Source: a phage
Reading direction: 5' to 3' (one strand)
Sequence record: PZ445489.1
DNA: 64,000 bases
In this document: piece after piece, positions 9,133 to 64,000 of the stretch
How the letters are laid out: every line of letters begins with the position of its first letter
Position numbering within the stretch: the stretch's first letter is position 1
Program-made: the position numbers and the translations under genes
The notes under the pieces: model-generated
What the model was told of the DNA's origin: nothing
The model's database searches: none
Seen by the model: the letters and a program-made list of their open reading frames with translations, nothing else

Positions 9133-9805
9133 GTTTCAGGGCAGCCTTAACAGCCTCATTAATCAACGTAATAATTTCTTCACGAGTCCACTTATACCCT
9201 AGAGATTTTACGTCAACCCCTAACTTTTCCAGATGTTTAACAGAAGCCAGCTCGTAATTCATATAATGAACGTTCTGTTGTTTGCTTTCTGATAGAAGCC
9301 ATACACGGTAACAACCAACAGGATTATCCATTGCTTTTTTGATTTCACCAATACACTGGTATCCAGGAACCCAAACAAGTTCTCCAACCTCAAATTCTTC
9401 TGCCACAGCATCGTCAGGAATAATTGGAGGATTCAATGGATCTACAATATCGTTCAAACGAAGTAGAGCACCATATCGTTCCAGAACAGATTTAACCATT
9501 GCTACAGAGCGGTAATTACGATCGGCAATTTCTTCAAAAGAATCACCAGATAGGTACTGTTCAATAACGTTGGCCAACTCAATACCTTCAATGAGTGTAC
9601 CACGTTTCTTTTTCTTCATTTCGGCAACTTGAATCTGGCGGTCTTGCCACTCTTCAATCATCCTTTCCATAGTCGGATTGGAAGATACGCCGAGCATTTC
9701 ACAAGCTGCTTTCTTGGTACCACCGTTCTCCAGATGCTCTATAACCTTTTTAAAGACTTCATCAGGGATTTCATGGATATGTTTCTTTCTGCGAGAACCA
9801 GCCAT
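9101..9805 (-). CDS. helix-turn-helix DNA-binding protein
   Basis: N-terminal HTH-like GGTKKAACEMLGVS; conserved promoter upstream on minus strand (~9815-9860). Confidence 0.5.
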   Translation of the reverse strand: MAGSRRKKHIHEIPDEVFKKVIEHLENGGTKKAACEMLGVSSNPTMERMIEEWQDRQIQVAEMKKKKRGTLIEGIELANVIEQYLSGDSFEEIADRNYRSVAMVKSVLERYGALLRLNDIVDPLNPPIIPDDAVAEEFEVGELVWVPGYQCIGEIKKAMDNPVGCYRVWLLSESKQQNVHYMNYELASVKHLEKLGVDVKSLGYKWTREEIITLINEAVKAALKLDKEKGKRRE

Positions 9806-9874
9806 ATTTAAACTCCTCTCTCAAATTTATGAATCTATTATACAGAAAAATTTTCCTGAAAGCAAATAAAATTT

Positions 9875-10117
9875 TTACGATTCCTTGAGCAGAGAAGAAA
9901 GTTCAGCATATACTTTATCTAACTCAAACCCTATGCGAAGGGATACGTTAGTCCTCCGTTGTTTAAGTAACCATTCGGATATGTTAGGGATGCCAGCTAA
10001 TCTGTGTGGTACCACCCTACATAGCTTTTCCGAAGTATCATAAACAGGAACTTTACGTTCTTTTACTGGAAACTTCCTTGTTTCCCATTTTTTATTCTTC
10101 ACTGTCATTTCTAGCAC
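9875..10117 (-). CDS. hypothetical protein (80 aa)
   Basis: ORF overlapping end of upstream 955-aa gene. Confidence 0.4.
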   Translation of the reverse strand: MLEMTVKNKKWETRKFPVKERKVPVYDTSEKLCRVVPHRLAGIPNISEWLLKQRRTNVSLRIGFELDKVYAELSSLLKES

Positions 10118-12959
10118 CTAGCTCTGACATTGCTTCATCATGCATATGTTTTTCCTCGTCAGTCATGAACTTATAAGGAATTGGCATACACTCGATTTTA
10201 CAATAGGTTCTGTACCAGTCTACAATATTTTCAGTGTTCATATCCTTACCAATACCCATCATACCAAGATACATTCTTGCATATTTTGGGTTAGCACTCT
10301 GACCTGTTTTAAGGAAGAAATCTTTCTTCTTACCTTTCAGAGCTTCTATGAATGGTTTGATAGTGACATTTGAACACTTCTTAATATCTTCCCAGAACAT
10401 CTCGTGCATTTTATGGAAGAATGCCGCTCGATCATTCGGTTTATCCTTGATATACTGTTCAACATGCTCAACTGTTACATCTTTAATAGACTCAAGATGA
10501 TAATAGCGAACAAGAAGTAGTTTAGCTTCATACGCATCCGCATGACGTGGAGCACAATAATCCGGAGTTGAATGTAGAATAGCTTTGATTCGCTCTTCTG
10601 TGTATTCTTTACCAGCACCTTCAATAGTTCCCCAGCTTTCGCTGAAAATATCAATAGTTGCACCCTGATCAAGCAAGTAATAACGTAAAGTACTAGTATA
10701 GTTCCTAGATTCCAGCTCTCTGCGACGTGCGTATAATTGCTGTGCTAACTCCGGCCAACCTTCATCAATATTATATTGCTCAGAACCTGCAGAGAACCCA
10801 CTAGTGGATTTATCAATAAAATAATAGATATTCTGAGCACCACGGTCGCGCCTGATTGCTTGGAAACGCATGTTTGGCGCTTGGTTACTAGTTCTAGTGA
10901 TAACGAATACGTTATCAAAATAGTTGAAGTCAACACCACTCGTTACGGATGGACTACATAATAAGCAATCAATTTGTTGATCAATTAGCTCATTAGTTGT
11001 GTAATCCAGAATACGTCTAATATCTACATCAGATGTAGAGTTTGAGTGGATTTCCTTAACTAACGCACCCGTATTACGACGCAATGCCATGCCCTTCTCA
11101 TTCAGTTCATCTGGACCACAGTCAGATACTAGGATAGATTTCTCACCCATCTCTAGAGAAGTCTGAAGTGCAACCCAAATACTGGACTCATCAGGGAACT
11201 CATAAGCATGAGCTTTTGACAGCATTTTACGGTGATGATTGTAAAATGCAACCGGTTTATCAAACTCAATCAAAGAACCATATGCTTCAATTGTTTCTGC
11301 ACTAATATCCCCATCAGATAATATAATGATTTTTGCAGTTGCAAGAATGTCCCGAAGAACCTGAATACATTCACGACGTTGTTTAACAACCGGGGCGAAT
11401 AATAGGTCATTCATTACAGCGTCACATTCATCGATAAAGATTGCATCAATTTGACCAATAAAACTCTTGAACTTATGCAAAGAGTGAATAGTTGTGGACA
11501 TACGGTCAATAGCACCACGCTTAAAATTAAGCATATCTACAGACTTATCATATTGTCCTGCACTAAATTTCTTAGCATTTGAAGATACCAGTGCTCGAGT
11601 ATTGGTAATTGCTAAGAAATTACCTTTAATAACTCCTGAATCCAGCCAACGCACAACCGCTGTAGTTTTACCTGTACCTAGACTTGCTTTTACAAAAGTC
11701 ATATAACCTTCTGGTGGCACGGTATTTAATTTCAAGAAGTTATCAGTTTCTAGAGAATTAGTTTCTAGCTTTTTAAGTGGAATACCTTTTAAAACATCTG
11801 GTATATCACGTTTAGAATTATTAACAAACGCTTTCAGAGCCTGTTTACGACCGTTGTTAAAATAATCTTGAATATTACGACTATTATCTTTAGTTGCAAT
11901 ATACTCAGATAAAGCTGGGCGGATCTCCTTCTCTAGCCAGCCAAAATCTACACCATCCTCTAGTGCTCGGTGATAGAGTTTAGGAATAATACGTAGATAT
12001 ACACCATCCTCAGCTTCTTCTAATTCGCTGATAGTTTCCTCTACTTTATCAGAGGCAGCTTTTTTACCTTTAATTTGGTCGAGTAAAGAATAGAACTCCT
12101 CCTTAAACTCACCTCTAGTTGTTTCATAGTCAACTAGATTATTAGGTAAATTTACTTTTGAGCCTTTAACAAATACCAGACGTGAAGTACCCTCCGCTTT
12201 AAACGGATCTACTATACCATCAGTAAATAAAGGATCTGCAAAGTAATGGAGCTGTACGGAAGAGTAATAAGCTAAGTCGGCAATATCAAAGCCATACTTT
12301 TGTCTACTACTTTCGTTGATAGATGTAAATAAGAACTTGATTTGACCCTGAGTTACTTTAACATTAGATTCTAGTATTAAGTGCATTCGGATACCTGGTT
12401 TTAGCCCAGCCGAAGATGACGCATGAGCGATAAACCCTGCATCAAGAGGAAACATATCCTCACTAATACTATTTAACATCCTAATAATATGTCGAGCCAT
12501 GCCAACAAGATCAAACTTGTTACAACCTCCTGTATCTACAATACCATCCACATCCATTGCGATTATATGACTTGGATTAGATACATTAAAGTTGCCCTTC
12601 TTACGTCGCACATTATTTTTAGGTGCAAGACATCGACCTCGTACCGCAACGATATGAGGGTCAGACGTTAAACGTCTCATAAGAGGAAGCATTTCTACTA
12701 GGGTTTGAGGATCAACTTCATCAATTACATCAAACTTGAAGGGCATTGAAGCTGGTTTACCTTCAGGATGCTTTGAGGAAAATCTTTTAGCAAAAAGATA
12801 ATCTTCTGCTTTAACTTCTCGCCAATTGCCTGTGGCTAAATCGCGATGAAATCCTGCATGACCTTGTAGGATTGAAAACACAACAATACTCCTGTATTGG
12901 AAATGAAATAAGTTTTCTTTAGGACTATTCAGAAAGAATAGAACAACTGTTACTGTCAA
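10092..12959 (-). CDS. putative replication origin-binding / helicase-like P-loop NTPase (955 aa)
   Basis: Walker A LGTGKTTAV and Walker B-like IFIDECD in central region; large size; position in replication module. Confidence 0.55.
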   Translation of the reverse strand: MTVTVVLFFLNSPKENLFHFQYRSIVVFSILQGHAGFHRDLATGNWREVKAEDYLFAKRFSSKHPEGKPASMPFKFDVIDEVDPQTLVEMLPLMRRLTSDPHIVAVRGRCLAPKNNVRRKKGNFNVSNPSHIIAMDVDGIVDTGGCNKFDLVGMARHIIRMLNSISEDMFPLDAGFIAHASSSAGLKPGIRMHLILESNVKVTQGQIKFLFTSINESSRQKYGFDIADLAYYSSVQLHYFADPLFTDGIVDPFKAEGTSRLVFVKGSKVNLPNNLVDYETTRGEFKEEFYSLLDQIKGKKAASDKVEETISELEEAEDGVYLRIIPKLYHRALEDGVDFGWLEKEIRPALSEYIATKDNSRNIQDYFNNGRKQALKAFVNNSKRDIPDVLKGIPLKKLETNSLETDNFLKLNTVPPEGYMTFVKASLGTGKTTAVVRWLDSGVIKGNFLAITNTRALVSSNAKKFSAGQYDKSVDMLNFKRGAIDRMSTTIHSLHKFKSFIGQIDAIFIDECDAVMNDLLFAPVVKQRRECIQVLRDILATAKIIILSDGDISAETIEAYGSLIEFDKPVAFYNHHRKMLSKAHAYEFPDESSIWVALQTSLEMGEKSILVSDCGPDELNEKGMALRRNTGALVKEIHSNSTSDVDIRRILDYTTNELIDQQIDCLLCSPSVTSGVDFNYFDNVFVITRTSNQAPNMRFQAIRRDRGAQNIYYFIDKSTSGFSAGSEQYNIDEGWPELAQQLYARRRELESRNYTSTLRYYLLDQGATIDIFSESWGTIEGAGKEYTEERIKAILHSTPDYCAPRHADAYEAKLLLVRYYHLESIKDVTVEHVEQYIKDKPNDRAAFFHKMHEMFWEDIKKCSNVTIKPFIEALKGKKKDFFLKTGQSANPKYARMYLGMMGIGKDMNTENIVDWYRTYCKIECMPIPYKFMTDEEKHMHDEAMSELGARNDSEE

Positions 12960-13380
12960 TTTCTCAACAAATTAATCGCAAATACTGAAGGGGGGTGGCA
13001 ACTTCCCCTTTCACGCTACACTGCCGCTTCACTATACCGCACAAATCCTTGAGGATGGCCGCTAAGCCAGATTTGCTCACCTAATGCTTCATGTACTAGC
13101 TCATACTAGATGTAGTATACCTTACGTCATCACTTCTCAGAGTTTTTCACTCTTCCCGTCTCACTTCACAACCACCTCACACTAGGTTGCTTCGAGGCCT
13201 TACCAGGGTTCCTACGGGATGTAGATCGCTAAGTATTCTATTAACTATTTGTTTAAAAACTAACACGTAACAGTTAAAACAACCCTTAATGGGGCAGCCT
13301 AACTGTTCCGTATCGCGGATTGTAAACAAGAAAAATTAGCAAAATCAATTTTTACTAATGTCTCTCAATTCAATATAAAT

Positions 13381-13409
13381 ATTATATCAAGATTTTGGGC
13401 ATCATGCAA
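13381..13409 (-). promoter_or_regulatory. early-type sigma70 promoter (minus strand) upstream of long 5' leader of the 955-aa gene
   Basis: minus strand TTGCAT-17-TATAAT + ATTTATATTGAATTGAGAG leader. Confidence 0.55.
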
Positions 13410-13485
13410 GTAAAATTTTCCGGATGGTGCTATCATTGGTCTTGAGTACGGATAAAACCGAGCCAAAATGACTCGGTTATGTGGA

Positions 13486-13683
13486 TTAGACACTTAAAAT
13501 ACTTCTAATCTCTTCTATATACTTATCTACTTTTTTAGCATCTACTTTATTTAGTTTTCCTATATCAAAACTAGGATCAGTAAACATTCTAGCTATCTCT
13601 ATCTCTAGAGACTTACTAATTTTCCCTGTAGTATTCCACTTAGAAATCTTACCTTTTATTTTCCAAAATTCCTTATTCATCAT
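13486..13683 (-). CDS. hypothetical protein (65 aa)
   Basis: ORF only. Confidence 0.4.
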   Translation of the reverse strand: MMNKEFWKIKGKISKWNTTGKISKSLEIEIARMFTDPSFDIGKLNKVDAKKVDKYIEEIRSILSV

Positions 13684-14065
13684 TTAATCCCGGAACATAT
13701 ATCCCAACACGGTTTAATTGTTCTTTAGCTTCTTTGAGAATATCTGGAGTGTACTCCCAAATATCATCTTCCACCTGTAAAAGATGGGGCGAACAACCAT
13801 CATCAGGCACACGACATATGGCAAAACCACGTGGATGGAACAAAGAGAAATTTAGTGCAACAATTAAACCCATAGCAGACAATTCATTCCAATCCAATTC
13901 CCATTCCCCAGCGTAGCCTGATAGGCAAACACCAATACAGGGATCGTCTATTTGCTGCTCCGGAAAAGTGAAGGAGACTTGTCTTACTCCCAACCAACGT
14001 TGTAGCAGCTTCTCCGCACGTTTCACCAAACTAGGGTCAATCTGACGCCAATATACTTGTTCCAT
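13673..14065 (-). CDS. hypothetical protein, paralog of adjacent 14075..14503 product
   Basis: Shared motifs with neighbour: PCIG, W.EL.EMGL..ALN..LF.P, G(Y/I).PGL. Confidence 0.55.
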   Translation of the reverse strand: MEQVYWRQIDPSLVKRAEKLLQRWLGVRQVSFTFPEQQIDDPCIGVCLSGYAGEWELDWNELSAMGLIVALNFSLFHPRGFAICRVPDDGCSPHLLQVEDDIWEYTPDILKEAKEQLNRVGIYVPGLNDE

Positions 14066-33437: not shown

Positions 33438-33476
33438 AGCCCTGCGTTCCCTGGAGAGCGCAGGGCTTTTCTTTTA
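33438..33476 (+). terminator. rho-independent terminator
   Basis: AGCCCTGCG...CGCAGGGCT hairpin + TTTTCTTTT. Confidence 0.6.
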
Positions 33477-61694: not shown

Positions 61695-62037
61695 AGTATA
61701 TATTCTTGCAAATAGGGATCTGACGAAGATCCCTAAGAGAACAAAGATCGGTATTAGTATGAATCCACATAATAGGATTCAAACACTAAACTTAGATAAG
61801 ATAGTTTATCGTGGTTTTGACGATTTATACGTGTATGGGATCTATGAAACCCATAATCCTAGAGATCTAGAAGCCGCTGCACATATCTACTTTAAGAAAT
61901 ACCGCTGTAATTTAAAGGGATTCGAAGGATGCACAGAGTTCTTTGATATTCACCCACAACTTGCAGAACGATTCCTATTAAATACAGGAGCCAAGAAGAT
62001 TTACGACCCCAATATCAATCTCGAAGGAGATGTATAA
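61681..62037 (+). CDS. hypothetical protein (118 aa)
   Basis: ORF. Confidence 0.5.
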   Translation: MSLYKVYILANRDLTKIPKRTKIGISMNPHNRIQTLNLDKIVYRGFDDLYVYGIYETHNPRDLEAAAHIYFKKYRCNLKGFEGCTEFFDIHPQLAERFLLNTGAKKIYDPNINLEGDV

Positions 62038-62054
62038 ACGTTAACAAAATCTTC

Positions 62055-62084
62055 TTGACAACTCATTGCGGAACATGTTATAAT
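62055..62084 (+). promoter_or_regulatory. strong sigma70-type promoter reading into ORF-free repeat region
   Basis: TTGACA-18-TATAAT. Confidence 0.55.
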
Positions 62085-62359
62085 AATCTCATAGATTAAA
62101 AACAACTCTTGTTTTGAACTCTAGGGGCGATGATTATTACACTTAGTATTACGTCTATACGTTGCGACAGCACGAGTATAGATCTAATTACTAAGTCTTC
62201 CGTAATACTCACGCGCCCCACGAGGAATCTCACATGAAATGGGGGTATATTTACTTTTAAATAACTAAAAATATTTAAAGGCAATATCTGTGTTCAAGAT
62301 GATACACCTGTTGCCGCTCATCTGCTAGGATGGCACAACACTTTCTAGTAGACTCCTAA

Positions 62360-62563
62360 GTTTCTAGGAATAGTTGAGCACTAACTCTAGAGTTTACATT
62401 AAACTTTAAATCTGTTTCTCTAGCCAACTCAGGCGGTTTTCATTGTTCCTAGAAACTCTAGCAATAGGCGGTTATAGGGAGGGCGGTTATTTCTAGAAGA
62501 CATTTTTTGAAAACACATTTCCAGAAATTACTGTCGGATTTGCACACTGCATTTCTAGAAATT
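62360..62563. repeat. cluster of palindromic (A)TTTCTAGAAA-like sites (~5 copies)
   Basis: TTTCTAGGAA 62361, TTCCTAGAAA ~62446, TTTCTAGAA 62489, ATTTCCAGAAAT ~62517, ATTTCTAGAAAT ~62551. Confidence 0.6.
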
Positions 62564-63133
62564 TATGGTCGGATTTGCACAAACGCCTAAGTTTTTAGGG
62601 ACACATAATCTCCTGAAAATAGCAGCATTATTTCGGGCCGAAGGCCCATGATTGCCTGAGTTTTTAGAGCCACAGAAATTTTCACTTGTCAAGCTATTTT
62701 GCCCCGTTTAGCTAATAAAATTTTACTTTTTCTGCACCTATCTCAAATTAACCCAAATTATCTCACATCTTCCCCAAAATCCCCGCAAATCAGGTGCTCC
62801 GCACCAAACATGCGCCCCATCCTTCTAGCCTCCCAAATTTCTCTCACTCTCTCATCTTCTCCTCAAACCCACACAATCACACACCCTCCAATCGAAGTCA
62901 CAAAAATCTTGTCGGATTCGCACAAATAAACCCATGTCGGATTTGCACATATTCTAGCTAATTCCACAGGATTGATGCGCAGCATCGGATTGCTGGAGTT
63001 TTTGGGAAAATTCATTGTCGGATTTGCACACTATAAAAATTTTTCGGGTCGGATTTGCACACTACCAAAAATTGTCGGATTCGCACATACATGCCCGCAC
63101 GTAACACCCGTGGAGCAATGTCGGATTTGCACA
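62533..63133 (+). repeat. 8 direct copies of 14-bp motif GTCGGATT(T/C)GCACA
   Basis: Copies start at 62533, 62568, 62911, 62936, 63017, 63048, 63074, 63120, all in same orientation, variable spacing. Confidence 0.8.
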
Positions 63134-63138
63134 AAAGC

Positions 63139-63156
63139 GCAGGGCAATTGCCCTGC
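63139..63156. repeat. 18-bp perfect palindrome GCAGGGCAATTGCCCTGC
   Basis: Self-complementary. Confidence 0.75.
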
Positions 63157-63164
63157 TAGCCTGA

Positions 63165-63300
63165 ATGCGAATGATAATAAGAATCATTATCATTTAAAAA
63201 GCGAAATGAGAACTATTCAAAAAGTGAAATGATTCTCATTTAGGAAAGGAAATGATTATCGGTTAGAAAGTGAAATGCGAATGAGAATAATTCTCATTTA
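63165..63300. repeat. series of inverted repeats built on GAAATGA / TCATTTC and AATGAGAAT / ATTCTCATT half-sites
   Basis: ATGATAATAAGAATCATTATCAT, GAAATGATTCTCATTT, AATGAGAATAATTCTCATT. Confidence 0.65.
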
Positions 63301-63331
63301 AGAATGGAAGTGAGAAACACTGTTATTTAAG

Positions 63332-63340
63332 TTATCCACA
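63332..63340 (+). promoter_or_regulatory. DnaA box (TTATCCACA)
   Basis: Exact 9-mer match to consensus. Confidence 0.5.
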
Positions 63341-63404
63341 GACTTATTAACAGCACGATTTGACTTGACAGAATCCTAGCCATTTTGAGGCGTTATTAAC
63401 AGAC

Positions 63405-63413
63405 TTATCCACA
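63405..63413 (+). promoter_or_regulatory. DnaA box (TTATCCACA)
   Basis: Exact 9-mer match; flanked by repeated GACTTAT / TTATTAACAG motifs. Confidence 0.5.
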
Positions 63414-63421
63414 GCTTATCC

Positions 63422-63441
63422 TACTGTATAAATATACAGTA
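63422..63441. promoter_or_regulatory. LexA-box-like palindrome TACTGTATAAATATACAGTA
   Basis: CTG-N10-CAG with AT-rich spacer, 9-bp arms perfectly self-complementary. Confidence 0.55.
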
Positions 63442-63644
63442 TTCCTACGTAGTGAATAATTCTAATATACCGCTAAAACGTCCTAGATCGCATTCTAACG
63501 CGTTTAATTTTGGTGGGGATACTAAAACAAGGGCAAAATTGGAGGAGGCTTAAAAATTAGTTAGCCCGCTAACGATCACACAAGTCGACACGTAACACCC
63601 TAATCATTAGCAGGCTAACCATCGCGGGCGCGCTCAAATGAGAA

Positions 63645-63669
63645 TGATTCTCATTTGAGAATTGGGGGC
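63645..63669. repeat. 25-bp near-perfect palindrome TCAAATGAGAATGATTCTCATTTGA
   Basis: Same half-site family as 63165-63300 repeats. Confidence 0.65.
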
Positions 63670-63697
63670 ACTCCCTGGTAGTTGCGCCCCGTTATTA

Positions 63698-63892
63698 TTA
63701 ATCCGGTAATTGATGCGTGATCTTCTCCTCTTCCCCATAGGAATCGACCAAATGCTGATAATAACCATCGGCATCATAAATAACGCTATCATATTCCCCC
63801 CGCTCGACCGCTTGCCGGTTTTCCGGCGTATCGGGCACGTAAAAAACATCAACCATTGTACTGATTTTGGTTACAACAATTTTATTGCTCAT
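63698..63892 (-). CDS. hypothetical protein (64 aa)
   Basis: ORF only; beyond the repeat region, opposite strand. Confidence 0.3.
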   Translation of the reverse strand: MSNKIVVTKISTMVDVFYVPDTPENRQAVERGEYDSVIYDADGYYQHLVDSYGEEEKITHQLPD

Positions 63893-64000
63893 TGCGCCAC
63901 CTTTCGAAACGCTGTTTCAATACTATCCGCAGTGGATTGAATATACGCGCCTTTCATTACTAGGCGCTCGGTGCATACCTTGCGGAAAATATTAATAAAA

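What the first reader, a model, noticed from the sequence alone, without database searches (positions are those of the whole stretch)
62700..62905. Strongly strand-biased G-depleted (C/A-rich) tract
About 200 bp on the plus strand are almost devoid of G (for example CCCCAAAATCCCCGCAAATCAGG... CTCTCACTCTCTCATCTTCTCCTCAAACCCACACAATCACACACCC). Such extreme skew is unusual for coding or ordinary intergenic DNA and may reflect a nicking/structural site, an R-loop-prone or triplex-forming region, or an unusual transcript.
Basis: seen in the sequence. Interest (0 to 1): 0.45.

Follow-up and report, generated by a model that had tools for sequence, protein, structure and literature searches.

The report
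G-poor tract ending T5 terminal repeat
The G-poor stretch is real and is the last ~240 bp of the long terminal repeat of a T5-like phage, inside the non-coding region annotated in T5 as the "injection stop signal"; the region is already known, but what it does is still unsolved.

Summary
**Observation: confirmed.** Window 62700-62905 has G 14, C 77, A 60, T 55. Its GC skew of -0.69 to -0.71 is the most extreme of the 64 kb (about 4.9 sd), and it holds the two longest G-free runs.

**Identity.** The window is a T5-like phage in reverse orientation, and the tract is 94% identical to T5 9912-10117.
- It starts 33 bp inside the right boundary of the direct terminal repeat (window 62666|62667).
- It lies between two same-oriented clusters of GTCGGATTTGCACA iterons, in T5's annotated "iss" / Repeat Region 3.
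- Six complete genome records end exactly at the homologous base.

**Conserved properties.** The sequence of the tract drifts between genera, but several properties persist:
- the C-rich/G-poor composition;
- A-tracts phased at about 10 bp, which predicts bent DNA;
- a central two-stem hairpin whose stem sequences differ between three genera.

- The mapped T5 nick motif is 232 bp away, not in the tract.
- G-quadruplex, triplex and coding readings fail their tests.
- An R-loop reading is unlikely.

**Most likely function (inferred, about 0.4).** A bent architectural spacer in the nucleoprotein complex that defines or processes the repeat end. The main rival (about 0.3) is a Rho-loading (rut) site for leftward early transcripts.

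**Verdict.** Known region, function open, moderate interest.

The parts
62700..62905 (+). G-depleted, C-rich tract as reported. It is homologous to T5 (AY587007) 9912-10117.
   Evidence: Composition and rank in the window. Alignment to T5. Same tract in T5.
62666..62667 (.). Right boundary of the direct terminal repeat. The repeat interior starts at 62667 and runs to higher window coordinates. This base corresponds to the physical right end of virion DNA.
   Evidence: Homology to the T5 repeat end at 10139. Annotated ends in Elw, Sw2 (PhageTerm) and KpGranit (PhageTerm). Six complete two-repeat genome records end exactly with GAGCCACAG.... This is inferred by homology, because the window holds only one copy of the repeat.
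62612..62699 (.). Most conserved block of the region. It spans the boundary and includes the hairpin GGGCCGAAGGCCC (62636-62648, outside the repeat) and the first 33 bp inside the repeat, with an invariant TTGACA on the minus strand (62687-62692).
   Evidence: 95-100% column conservation in Tequintavirus and Epseptimavirus. The first 33 bp inside the repeat are 82% identical in Klebsiella Sugarlandvirus, where the rest of the tract is only 52%. The hairpin also appears in the ssDNA fold. It is annotated as a terminator in Sw2.
62735..62784 (+). G-free arm 1 (50 nt). It holds the T5 'direct repeat A' copies 2 and 3 (about 62742-62780), phased CAAAT/CAAAA motifs, and the predicted bend centre at about 62765.
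62784..62814 (.). Central two-stem hairpin or dyad: CGCA-AATCA-GGTGC-TCC-GCACC-AAACA-TGCG. It holds half of the tract's G residues.
   Evidence: ssDNA fold z = -4.2 against shuffles. The same architecture (4-5 bp stem, 5x5/6 internal loop, 5 bp stem, 3-4 nt loop) occurs with different stem sequences in Epseptimavirus (outer stem) and Sugarlandvirus (both stems).
62829..62893 (+). G-free arm 2 (65 nt). It has a (TC)n-like stretch and then a highly conserved CA-rich block at 62862-62905. In Epseptimavirus and Sugarlandvirus an extra iteron sits where this phage has CTCTCACTCTCTCATC.
62911..63133 (+). Six same-oriented iterons GTCGGATT(T/C)GCACA (T5 'direct repeat D' copies 6 to 1) inside the repeat, starting at 62911, 62936, 63017, 63048, 63074 and 63120.
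62533..62581 (+). Two more iterons of the same orientation outside the repeat (T5 'direct repeat D' copies 8 and 7), at 62533 and 62568. A second predicted bend lies at about 62580.
63137..63144 (+). T5 major-nick motif GCGCAGGG (the 7.9% nick). This is the nearest nick site and it is not part of the tract.
62055..62084 (+). Perfect sigma-70 consensus promoter (TTGACA-18-TATAAT, with TG) pointing toward the tract. No ORF lies downstream of it.
   Evidence: Promoter scan. A similar site is present in T5, chee24, saus132 and KpGranit. ORF list.

Best explanation
**Shown (confidence about 0.95).** The tract is the terminal about 35-240 bp of the roughly 10-kb direct terminal repeat of a T5-like phage (Tequintavirus).
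- It is orthologous to T5 9912-10117.
- It fills the gap between iterons D6 and D7.
- It begins 33 bp from the repeat/unique boundary, which is also the physical right end of virion DNA.

**Inferred mechanism (confidence about 0.4).** The tract acts as double-stranded architectural DNA.
- It is an oriented array of C-run/A-run motifs, phased at about 10 bp, that bends or wraps the DNA.
- A small central dyad or hairpin interrupts it.
- Together with the iteron clusters on both sides and the ultra-conserved boundary block, it would build the nucleoprotein complex that recognises and processes the repeat end.
- By the last-in-first-out rule, T5 DNA would be packaged right end first. The tract would then be the first DNA threaded into the capsid, on the packaged side of the cut, as cosB is in lambda.

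On this reading the extreme strand skew is largely a by-product of all motif copies pointing the same way.
For: **Identity and position**
- The region matches T5-like phages at 85-92% identity.
- T5 annotations place it in the iss and the terminal repeat, and the alignment maps it base by base.
- The boundary at 62667 agrees with T5, Elw, Sw2, KpGranit and six genome ends.

**Architecture across the family**
- The order iterons, skewed tract of about 240 bp, TTGACA about 20 bp from the boundary, then more iterons is kept in Tequintavirus, Epseptimavirus, Sugarlandvirus and Serratia phage Slocum.
- The most conserved block is the boundary itself.

**Double-strand-level properties that persist**
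- AA periodicity of 9.75-10.25 bp is the top spectral peak in the window, T5, Sw2, saus132 and the sequence-unrelated Slocum.
- In KpGranit a roughly 9-10 bp periodicity appears in the C-runs instead.
- The tract is in the top 0.4% of the window for this periodicity.
- A wedge model predicts an 81-degree bend at about 62765 (99.8th percentile) and a second bend at about 62580, on the other side of the boundary.
- There are 8 CAAA motifs in one orientation against 1.8 expected.

**Asymmetry between the two boundaries**
- The iterons are absent from the other (left) repeat boundary, so this is a one-sided site.

**Analogy**
- T7 also has a G-poor tract (9 G to 35 C per 100 nt) abutting its terminal repeat.
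Against: - No protein-binding, packaging or injection data exist for this segment.
- The papers I could search and read say the region's mechanism is still not understood.
- A double-strand architectural role does not need strand asymmetry.
- The tract's sequence is less conserved than its flanks while its composition is kept. That pattern fits a single-strand-level function at least as well.
- The hairpin's changes on both sides of its stems also suggest a single-stranded form.
- The skew is much weaker in Slocum (+0.38).
- The packaging direction is inferred from the last-in-first-out rule and is not shown for T5.
- The wedge parameters for the curvature model were recalled from memory.
Confidence: 0.4

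Rival explanations
1. **Rho-loading (rut) site.** Leftward (window + strand) early transcripts, and transcripts from the consensus promoter at 62055, enter about 600 nt of untranslated RNA and then this C-rich, G-poor, unstructured tract. Host Rho loads there and terminates within the iteron cluster. This would keep RNA polymerase out of the terminal repeat, where it would read antisense to the pre-early genes and cross the repeat-end and iss structures. The two G-free arms around a hairpin resemble lambda tR1 (rutA-boxB-rutB); that resemblance is recalled from memory.
For: - The adjacent genes (59-62 kb) and a 12/12 consensus promoter are on the + strand and point at the tract.
- A similar promoter is present in T5, chee24, saus132 and KpGranit.
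- No canonical intrinsic terminator lies on that strand before the tract, and none is annotated in T5 between 10140 and 10856.
- As + strand RNA the tract is the least structured 206-nt segment of the 64 kb: -11.3 kcal/mol against -44.5 +/- 8.7. The complementary strand is unremarkable at -33.3.
- The best 80-nt window has 38 C and 3 G, there are 54 YC dinucleotides, and there is a (UC)n-like stretch.
- Composition is conserved while sequence drifts.
- KpGranit has a second C-rich tract on the same strand upstream.
Against: - There are no transcript or Rho data.
- The 10-bp A-tract phasing conserved across genera is not predicted by a rut function.
- Positional conservation relative to the repeat end is not required by it.
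- The promoter pattern was not found by my search in Elw or Sw2.
- The repeat copy at the right genome end cannot be transcribed in this direction from outside.
Confidence: 0.3
2. **Part of the injection stop/restart signal itself.** During first-step transfer the DNA halts with about 9.6 kb inside the cell. The tract and its iterons (9.67-10.4 kb in T5) would then lie at the envelope or within the tail tube or portal. There they would be held by a phage or host factor, or would be the target of A1/A2 for restart.
For: - T5 records annotate 9140-10149 as the iss, which overlaps most of the tract.
- The estimated shear point (9618) lies 50 bp left of the first iteron and about 300 bp left of the tract.
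- The region is conserved in all T5-like phages examined.
Against: [quoted passage not shown]
- The annotation is a region label and not a mapped function.
- Nothing in the sequence links strand skew to a translocation stop.
Confidence: 0.15
3. **Non-B DNA or nick site.** The tract would be a G-quadruplex or i-motif, an H-DNA triplex, an R-loop, or a site of the T5 single-strand interruptions.
For: - The G-rich strand has GGGG runs (GCGGGGATTTTGGGG), and the G4Hunter score reaches -1.44.
- KpGranit has GGGG(N3-6) repeated four times on the equivalent strand.
- A GCGC lies at 62812.
Against: - There is no canonical four-run G3+ motif even with 12-nt loops.
- Similar G4Hunter scores occur at a dozen other places in the window.
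- The longest pyrimidine run is 10 nt.
- The nick motif GCGCAGGG is absent from the tract.
- No promoter produces the G-rich RNA.
Confidence: 0.05
4. **Neutral by-product of strand-biased mutation.** For example, cytosine deamination of the 3'-ending strand when genome ends are resected.
For: - All three hairpin-disrupting variants seen are G to A on the + strand, which is C to T on the G-rich strand.
- The first 100 nt of the T5 left end show the mirror-image bias (16 G to 34 C).
Against: - C is doubled (37% against 19%) while A is about equal to T. Deamination cannot raise C on one strand or G on the other.
- Phasing, the hairpin and the conserved blocks all indicate selection.
- Variant states to G are about as frequent in the tract (17%) as in its flanks (18-20%).
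Confidence: 0.05
5. **Protein-coding gene.** Several GenBank records annotate 'hypothetical protein' over the tract.
For: - Stop-free frames of 89-174 codons occur on the + strand.
- CDS are annotated over the tract in chee24, Elw and Sw2.
Against: - The annotated CDS differ in strand and frame between records.
- Frame limits are not conserved, and indels are not multiples of three.
- Long open frames are expected anyway when G is missing, because TAG and TGA stops cannot occur.
- There are no PHROG matches.
- The window ORF starts with TTG and I saw no ribosome-binding site.
Confidence: 0.02

Closest known systems
Phage T5 left-terminal-repeat 'Repeat Region 3' / injection stop signal region (Heusterspreute 1987; Wang 2005 annotation AY587007; Davison 2020, bioRxiv 10.1101/866236)
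   Same: It is the same locus.
- The tract is 94% identical to T5.
- It has the same position between direct repeat D copies 6 and 7.
- It contains direct repeat A copies 2 and 3.
- It is at the same distance from the repeat end.
   Different: - The papers I could read list the repeats but do not mention the strand asymmetry, the helical phasing or the central hairpin.
- The two earlier papers (Heusterspreute 1987, Davison 2015) could not be read.
- This phage has 8 D-iterons rather than 9 in this region.
- It differs from T5 at 62040-62290.
T7 repeat array (recalled as 'SRL'; CCTAAAG heptamers) next to the terminal repeat / concatemer junction
   Same: - It is a G-poor, C/A-rich tract abutting the boundary of a direct terminal repeat. 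T7 161-340 has 9-10 G against 31-35 C per 100 nt.
- It is built from same-oriented short motifs.
- It is non-coding.
- It lies in a region implicated in concatemer processing (from my own knowledge).
   Different: - The T7 array lies just outside the repeat, whereas the T5 tract is just inside.
- Its polarity relative to the boundary is opposite.
- T7 has a clear heptamer repeat, whereas T5 has degenerate C-run/A-run motifs plus a hairpin.
- There is no sequence similarity.
Lambda cos (cosN cut site, cosB with an IHF bend and terminase small-subunit R sites); SPP1 pac with bent DNA
   Same: The layout works alike (from my own knowledge of these sites): a conserved cut site, bent DNA on the packaged side, and iterated short binding sites flanking it.
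   Different: - No terminase binding has been shown for T5 iterons.
- T5 makes long direct terminal repeats, not cohesive ends or headful cuts.
- There is no sequence similarity.
rut sites of Rho-dependent terminators (for example lambda tR1: rutA-boxB-rutB)
   Same: - C-rich, G-poor, unstructured RNA of more than 80 nt.
- YC-rich.
- Untranslated.
- Split by a small hairpin.
   Different: - Transcription through the tract and Rho dependence are untested.
- rut sites are not known to carry 10-bp A-tract phasing.

Membership tests
T5-type terminal-repeat end / iss non-coding region (Repeat Region 3) | [quoted passage not shown] | tested here: met
   Base-by-base alignment to AY587007, with the tract 94% identical. 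The iterons, nick motif and DnaA boxes are in the same order.
T5-type terminal-repeat end / iss non-coding region (Repeat Region 3) | Lies inside the direct terminal repeat, next to its inner boundary | tested here: met
   The boundary is placed by homology at 62666|62667. This agrees with T5, two PhageTerm-determined genomes of close genera, Elw and six genome-record ends. The second repeat copy of this phage is not in the window, so the test is indirect. chee24 and saus132 annotate a different end, at about 62874.
T5-type terminal-repeat end / iss non-coding region (Repeat Region 3) | Acts in cis to stop DNA transfer after 8% of the genome | not testable with these tools
   This needs infection experiments. 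The mechanism was still described as poorly understood in 2026.
Rho utilisation (rut) site | At least 60-80 nt of C-rich, G-poor RNA with little secondary structure | tested here: met
   C 37%, G 7%. The best 80-nt window has 38 C and 3 G. The + strand MFE of -11.3 kcal/mol is the weakest of all 206-nt windows.
Rho utilisation (rut) site | Located on an untranslated, actually transcribed RNA; termination depends on Rho | tested here: inconclusive
   There is a consensus promoter and upstream + strand genes, and no ORF or intrinsic terminator lies between them and the tract. No transcript or Rho data exist.
T5 single-strand interruption (major nick) site | Motif GCGCAGGG on the nicked (T5 minus, window +) strand | tested here: not met
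   The motif is identical at the three T5 major nicks within the 50 kb fetched. In the window it occurs at 33458, 49748 and 63137 only.
G-quadruplex / i-motif | Four runs of at least 3 G (or C) with short loops | tested here: not met
   No match with loops up to 12 nt. The G4Hunter peak of -1.44 is not exceptional in the window.
H-DNA / triplex | Homopurine-homopyrimidine mirror repeat of about 15 bp or more | tested here: not met
   The longest pyrimidine run is 10 nt. The tract is 64% pyrimidine because A is abundant.
Intrinsically bent DNA | A-tracts repeated in phase with the helix (about 10-10.5 bp) | tested here: met
   AA periodicity of 9.75-10.25 bp is the top spectral peak in five phages of three genera plus Slocum. 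The tract is in the top 0.4% of the window. A wedge model gives a bend at the 99.8th percentile (parameters recalled from memory). No gel data are available.
Protein-coding gene | Reading frame conserved among relatives; family match | tested here: not met
   Frames and strands differ between phages and between annotations. There are no PHROG matches.
Known structured RNA (Rfam) | Covariance-model match | tested here: not met
   No match at E<=1 in 61900-64000 on either strand.

The most novel reading that the evidence does not exclude
The module at the repeat end would be the long-sought cis element that both generates the T5 genome terminus (packaging initiation site) and holds or releases the DNA at the first-step-transfer pause. 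The module consists of:
- the ultra-conserved boundary block;
- the bent, strand-asymmetric tract with its hairpin, which changes on both sides of its stems;
- same-oriented iterons on both sides of the boundary.

On this reading the strand asymmetry is functional: one strand is read as single-stranded nucleic acid, either by Rho or by a phage protein.
Probability: 0.15. Interest if true: 0.65.

Novelty: already known. Interest (0 to 1): 0.35.

Why it matters
How T5 stops DNA injection at 8%, and how it makes its 10-kb terminal repeats, has been open since the 1960s. A 2026 paper still calls the mechanism poorly understood.

This check places the most compositionally extreme 200 bp of the genome exactly at the repeat end. 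It also shows which properties survive sequence turnover across genera:
- the C>G asymmetry;
- the 10-bp A-tract phasing;
- a hairpin whose stems differ between genera;
- the flanking oriented iterons.

That gives three concrete designs to test: invert the tract, recode it, or remove the phasing. It also offers a simple candidate function, a Rho insulator at the repeat border. In itself it does not solve either question. For annotation, it shows that the 'hypothetical proteins' called over this tract in several GenBank records are almost certainly artefacts of G depletion, which removes TAG and TGA stops.

Tried and rejected
- **Rfam**, both strands, E<=1: nothing.
- **PHROG scan** of the three ORFs over the tract: nothing.
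- **Coding reading:** rejected, because frames are not conserved.
- **G-quadruplex, triplex and nick motif:** all tested and not met.
- **The second most skewed window** (13486-13691) turned out to be a lysine-rich gene on the minus strand and is not a comparable element.
- **RNAalifold** on a MAFFT alignment of the hairpin mis-registered the Epseptimavirus sequences by one base and gave a meaningless consensus. I replaced it with per-sequence folds.
- **Strand test for the hairpin from wobble pairs:** I tried to decide which strand the hairpin works on from G.T-compatible variants. All three are G to A on the + strand, which is equally explained by the general loss of G, so the test is not decisive.
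- **TTGACA near the boundary:** it does not make a credible promoter, because there is no acceptable -10 (and inspection).
- **IMG/VR pattern scans** added only about 30 loci, mostly isolate genomes. The roughly 500 GenBank homologues could not be fetched in bulk.
- **Papers not held:** Davison 2015. Heusterspreute 1987 was not looked up and only its citation was seen. Whether either mentions the asymmetry is therefore unknown.
- **Literature searches** for T5 plus Rho, and for T5 plus a terminase cut site, gave nothing relevant.
- **Deamination-only explanation:** rejected, because C is enriched on the G-poor strand and A is about equal to T.
Full report
**1.

- With a 206-nt sliding window, the GC skew of the 64-kb window has mean +0.02 and sd 0.15. 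The minimum, -0.711, is at 62702-62907, about 4.9 sd out.
- The runner-up (-0.58 at 13486-13691) is simply the antisense of a small lysine-rich gene.
- The two longest G-free runs of the whole window (65 nt at 62829-62893, 50 nt at 62735-62784) are both in the tract.
- C is doubled (+4.8 sd), not merely G lost, and A is about equal to T.

**2. What the locus is**

The surrounding 1.66 kb (62040-63700) has no credible gene. It is packed with repeats, including eight same-oriented copies of GTCGGATT(T/C)GCACA against 0.3 expected.
- BLAST shows a T5-like phage: 550 records, best 92% identity, genera Tequintavirus and Epseptimavirus.
- The window runs in reverse orientation relative to T5 records.
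- AY587007 itemises the repeats: direct repeat D x9 (the iteron), direct repeat A copies 2 and 3, palindromes, and the 7.9% nick.

A base-by-base alignment maps the landmarks as follows.

| T5 landmark (AY587007) | Window position |
|---|---|
| Repeat end, 10139 | 62667 |
| Iteron D6 | 62911 |
| Iteron D7 | 62568 |
| Direct repeat A copies 2 and 3 | about 62742-62780 |
| 7.9% nick | 63137-63144 |

So the tract is the gap between iterons D6 and D7, and it begins 33 bp inside the repeat.

T5 itself has the same tract at 9912-10117, with skew +0.72 on its top strand. That is the extreme of its first 50 kb.

**3. The boundary**

The same boundary base is given by several independent sources:
- T5;
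- Elw;
- PhageTerm for Sw2, and for Klebsiella phage KpGranit;
- six complete two-repeat genome records, which literally end with the reverse complement of GAGCCACAGAAATTTTCAC..., that is, at window 62667.

Two food-isolate records (chee24, saus132) annotate an end about 207 bp further in. I regard these as less reliable, but they are a discordant datum.

The tract is therefore the last about 35-240 bp of virion DNA at its right end. It is equally the inner edge of the left repeat.

T5 nicks are in the minus strand (PMC10644984; NC_005859 annotation). That strand is the window + strand, so the C-rich strand is the nicked strand.

**4. Comparative anatomy**

I aligned 22 distinct homologues.
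- *Boundary block.* The most conserved block is 62612-62699 (95-100%). It holds a GGGCCGAAGGCCC hairpin just outside the repeat and the first 33 bp inside it. Those first 33 bp are still 82% identical in Sugarlandvirus.
- *The tract itself.* It is less conserved than its flanks: 0.68-0.70 identity in Epseptimavirus and 0.52 in Sugarlandvirus.
- *Composition.* G stays at 11-28 and C at 75-85 per 210 nt.
- *KpGranit.* The sequence after the first 80 nt is not alignable, but the first 150 nt inside the boundary have 15 G against 56 C.
- *Serratia phage Slocum.* This is a distant member with a PhageTerm-defined end. The order is iterons x4, then a 244-bp tract, then TTGACA-N18 and the boundary, then iterons x2. 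The skew there is only +0.38.

The architecture is therefore family-wide. The extreme skew is strongest in the T5/Epseptimavirus/Sugarlandvirus branch.

Within the tract I distinguish three parts:
- G-free arm 1 (62735-62784), with phased CAAAT/CAAAA motifs.
- A central two-stem hairpin (62784-62814) holding half the G.
- G-free arm 2 (62829-62893), ending in a nearly invariant CA-rich block next to iteron D6.

In Epseptimavirus and Sugarlandvirus an extra iteron occupies the place where this phage has CTCTCACTCTCTCATC.

**5. Properties that persist**

(a) *Helical phasing.*
- AA periodicity at 9.75-10.25 bp is the highest spectral peak (4-25 bp scanned) in the repeat-terminal 244 bp of the window, T5, Sw2, saus132 and Slocum.
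- KpGranit instead shows C-runs with a period of about 9-10 bp.
- Window-wide, the tract is in the top 0.4%.
- A wedge model predicts an 81-degree bend at about 62765 (99.8th percentile) and another bend at about 62580, on the other side of the boundary. The parameters were recalled from memory, so the numbers are approximate.
- CAAA occurs 8 times in one orientation against 1.8 expected.

(b) *The hairpin.* The stem sequences differ between genera, but the geometry is the same: an outer stem of 4-5 bp, a 5x5 or 5x6 internal loop, an inner stem of 5 bp, and a loop of 3-4 nt.

| Genus | Hairpin sequence |
|---|---|
| Tequintavirus | CGCA-AATCA-GGTGC-TCC-GCACC-AAACA-TGCG |
| Epseptimavirus | GCAGC-AAACC-GGTGC-TGAA-GCACC-ACCACA-GCTGC |
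| Sugarlandvirus | CGCGC-CCACC-GCTGC-GCC-GCAGC-AAACT-GCGCG |

Three of the four outer-stem pairs change on both sides between Tequintavirus and Epseptimavirus.

(c) *Lack of structure in the C-rich strand.* As RNA the + strand folds at -11.3 kcal/mol against -44.5 +/- 8.7 for all windows, the weakest of the 64 kb. The other strand folds at -33.3, which is ordinary. As ssDNA, both strands show only the central hairpin.

**6.

- *Nick.* The three T5 major nicks in the first 50 kb share CCCTGCGC. In the window its complement GCGCAGGG lies at 33458, 49748 and 63137, and not in the tract.
- *Triplex.* The longest pyrimidine run is 10 nt.
- *G-quadruplex.* There is no canonical motif, and the G4Hunter score is unexceptional.
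- *R-loop.* A G-rich RNA would need minus-strand transcription. No promoter faces that way, and two terminators and a nick in that transcript's template strand lie upstream.
- *Coding.* The open frames are an artefact of missing TAG and TGA stops. They are not conserved in frame or strand and match no family.
- *Rfam.* Nothing.

**7. Mechanism**

Two readings remain serious.

*Reading A (preferred, about 0.4): double-stranded architectural DNA.*
- The tract would be a bent or wrapping spacer which, with the iteron clusters on both sides and the invariant boundary block, forms the nucleoprotein complex that recognises and processes the repeat end.
- The iterons are absent from the other repeat boundary, so this is a one-sided site.
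- If T5 follows the usual last-in-first-out rule, the right end is packaged first. The tract would then be the first DNA to enter the capsid, on the packaged side of the cut, as cosB is in lambda. This step is an inference, and the lambda comparison is from my own knowledge.
- T7 offers a partial parallel: a G-poor array (9 G to 35 C per 100 nt) abuts its terminal repeat.
- In this reading the skew follows from all motif copies pointing one way.

*Reading B (about 0.3): a Rho-loading site.*
- The neighbouring genes and a perfect consensus promoter (62055-62084) are on the + strand and point at the tract. A similar promoter is found in T5, chee24, saus132 and KpGranit.
- No ORF or intrinsic terminator intervenes.
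- The RNA would be about as good a Rho ligand as one could design: 38 C to 3 G in 80 nt, (UC)n-like stretches, and no structure.
- Conservation of composition rather than sequence, and a hairpin that changes on both sides of its stems, fit a single-strand-level function.
- The 10-bp A-tract phasing does not fit.
- The two readings are not exclusive.

*Reading C (about 0.15): a direct role in the injection stop.*
- This cannot be excluded.
- The one model I could read places the signal further left, at the DnaA-box repeats.

*Strand-biased mutation alone (about 0.05).*
- This fails because C is enriched on the G-poor strand.

**8. Novelty and verdict**

The region has been sequenced and annotated since 1987 and 2005. 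It is discussed as Repeat Region 3 and as the iss, and the tract contains the named DRA repeats.

In the papers I could read, none of the following is mentioned:
- the asymmetry;
- its exact terminal position;
- the phasing;
- the hairpin.

Two older papers (Heusterspreute 1987, Davison 2015) could not be read. The function of the whole region remains unknown.

I rate the finding as real, already known as a locus, and of moderate interest as a pointer for experiments on T5 terminus formation and two-step injection.

Noticed in passing
window 63173-63191; also 63283-63295 and 63640-63652: **Fur-box-like palindromes in the iss region.** GATAATAAGAATCATTATC matches the E. coli Fur consensus at 17 of 19 positions, against 0.02 expected per window. 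The T5 'DRC' palindromes share the 6-1-6 core GAGAAT-N-ATTCTC. Davison 2020 does not mention Fur. The T5 receptor FhuA is Fur-regulated, and these sites lie at the estimated first-step-transfer shear point.
   Followed up: partly
window 62055-62084 (+) and 62123-62219: **Consensus promoter with no gene downstream.** A 12/12 sigma-70 consensus promoter with an extended -10 lies directly after the last early gene, with no ORF downstream. It is followed by a long imperfect hairpin (GGGGCG...CGCGCCCC). A similar promoter is present in T5, chee24, saus132 and KpGranit, but the downstream 250 bp differ from T5. It could express a small RNA or drive transcription into the repeat. Rfam gives no match.
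   Followed up: partly
window 33458, 49748, 63137 (+ strand): **Nick motif.** The 8-nt motif GCGCAGGG, identical at the three T5 major nick sites within the first 50 kb of AY587007, occurs exactly three times in the window. The positions correspond roughly to the T5 32.6%, 18.3% and 7.9% nicks.
   Followed up: partly
window 62533-63133: **Iterons straddling the boundary.** Eight same-oriented iterons GTCGGATT(T/C)GCACA straddle the repeat boundary: two outside and six inside. None lies at the other repeat boundary in T5. Their binding protein is unknown.
   Followed up: partly
window 62362-62560 and 62432-62490: **Other local repeats just outside the repeat.** There are four TTCTAGRA palindromes within 200 bp and two or three GGCGGTTAT repeats. 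CTAG-containing palindromes are otherwise sparse in the window.
   Followed up: partly
window 63331-63354 and 63392-63415: **DnaA boxes.** Paired DnaA boxes (TTATCCACA / TTATTAACA) lie in two 24-nt direct repeats, as described for the T5 IRD'-spacer-IRC' element.
   Followed up: no
L004 (chee24) and L007 (saus132), against the other records: **Discordant repeat ends.** These two records annotate the terminal-repeat end about 207 bp further inside (homologous to window ~62874-62876) than T5, Elw, Sw2, KpGranit and six genome ends. This is either an annotation inaccuracy or a real alternative end within the tract.
   Followed up: partly
L009 (T5 AY587007) 1-100: **Mirror bias at the T5 left end.** The first 100 nt of the T5 left end show the mirror-image bias (16 G to 34 C on the top strand). 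At both genome ends the 3'-ending strand is therefore the G-rich one. The effect is weak at the left end.
   Followed up: no
L008 (KpGranit) 476-650: **Second C-rich tract in KpGranit.** A second C/A-rich, G-poor tract lies on the same strand outside the repeat, again just upstream of an iteron pair. This suggests a repeated module of a C-rich leader followed by iterons.
   Followed up: no
window 12960-13480: **Unexamined non-coding gap.** About 500 bp without a credible ORF lie between two minus-strand genes. I did not examine this stretch further.
   Followed up: no
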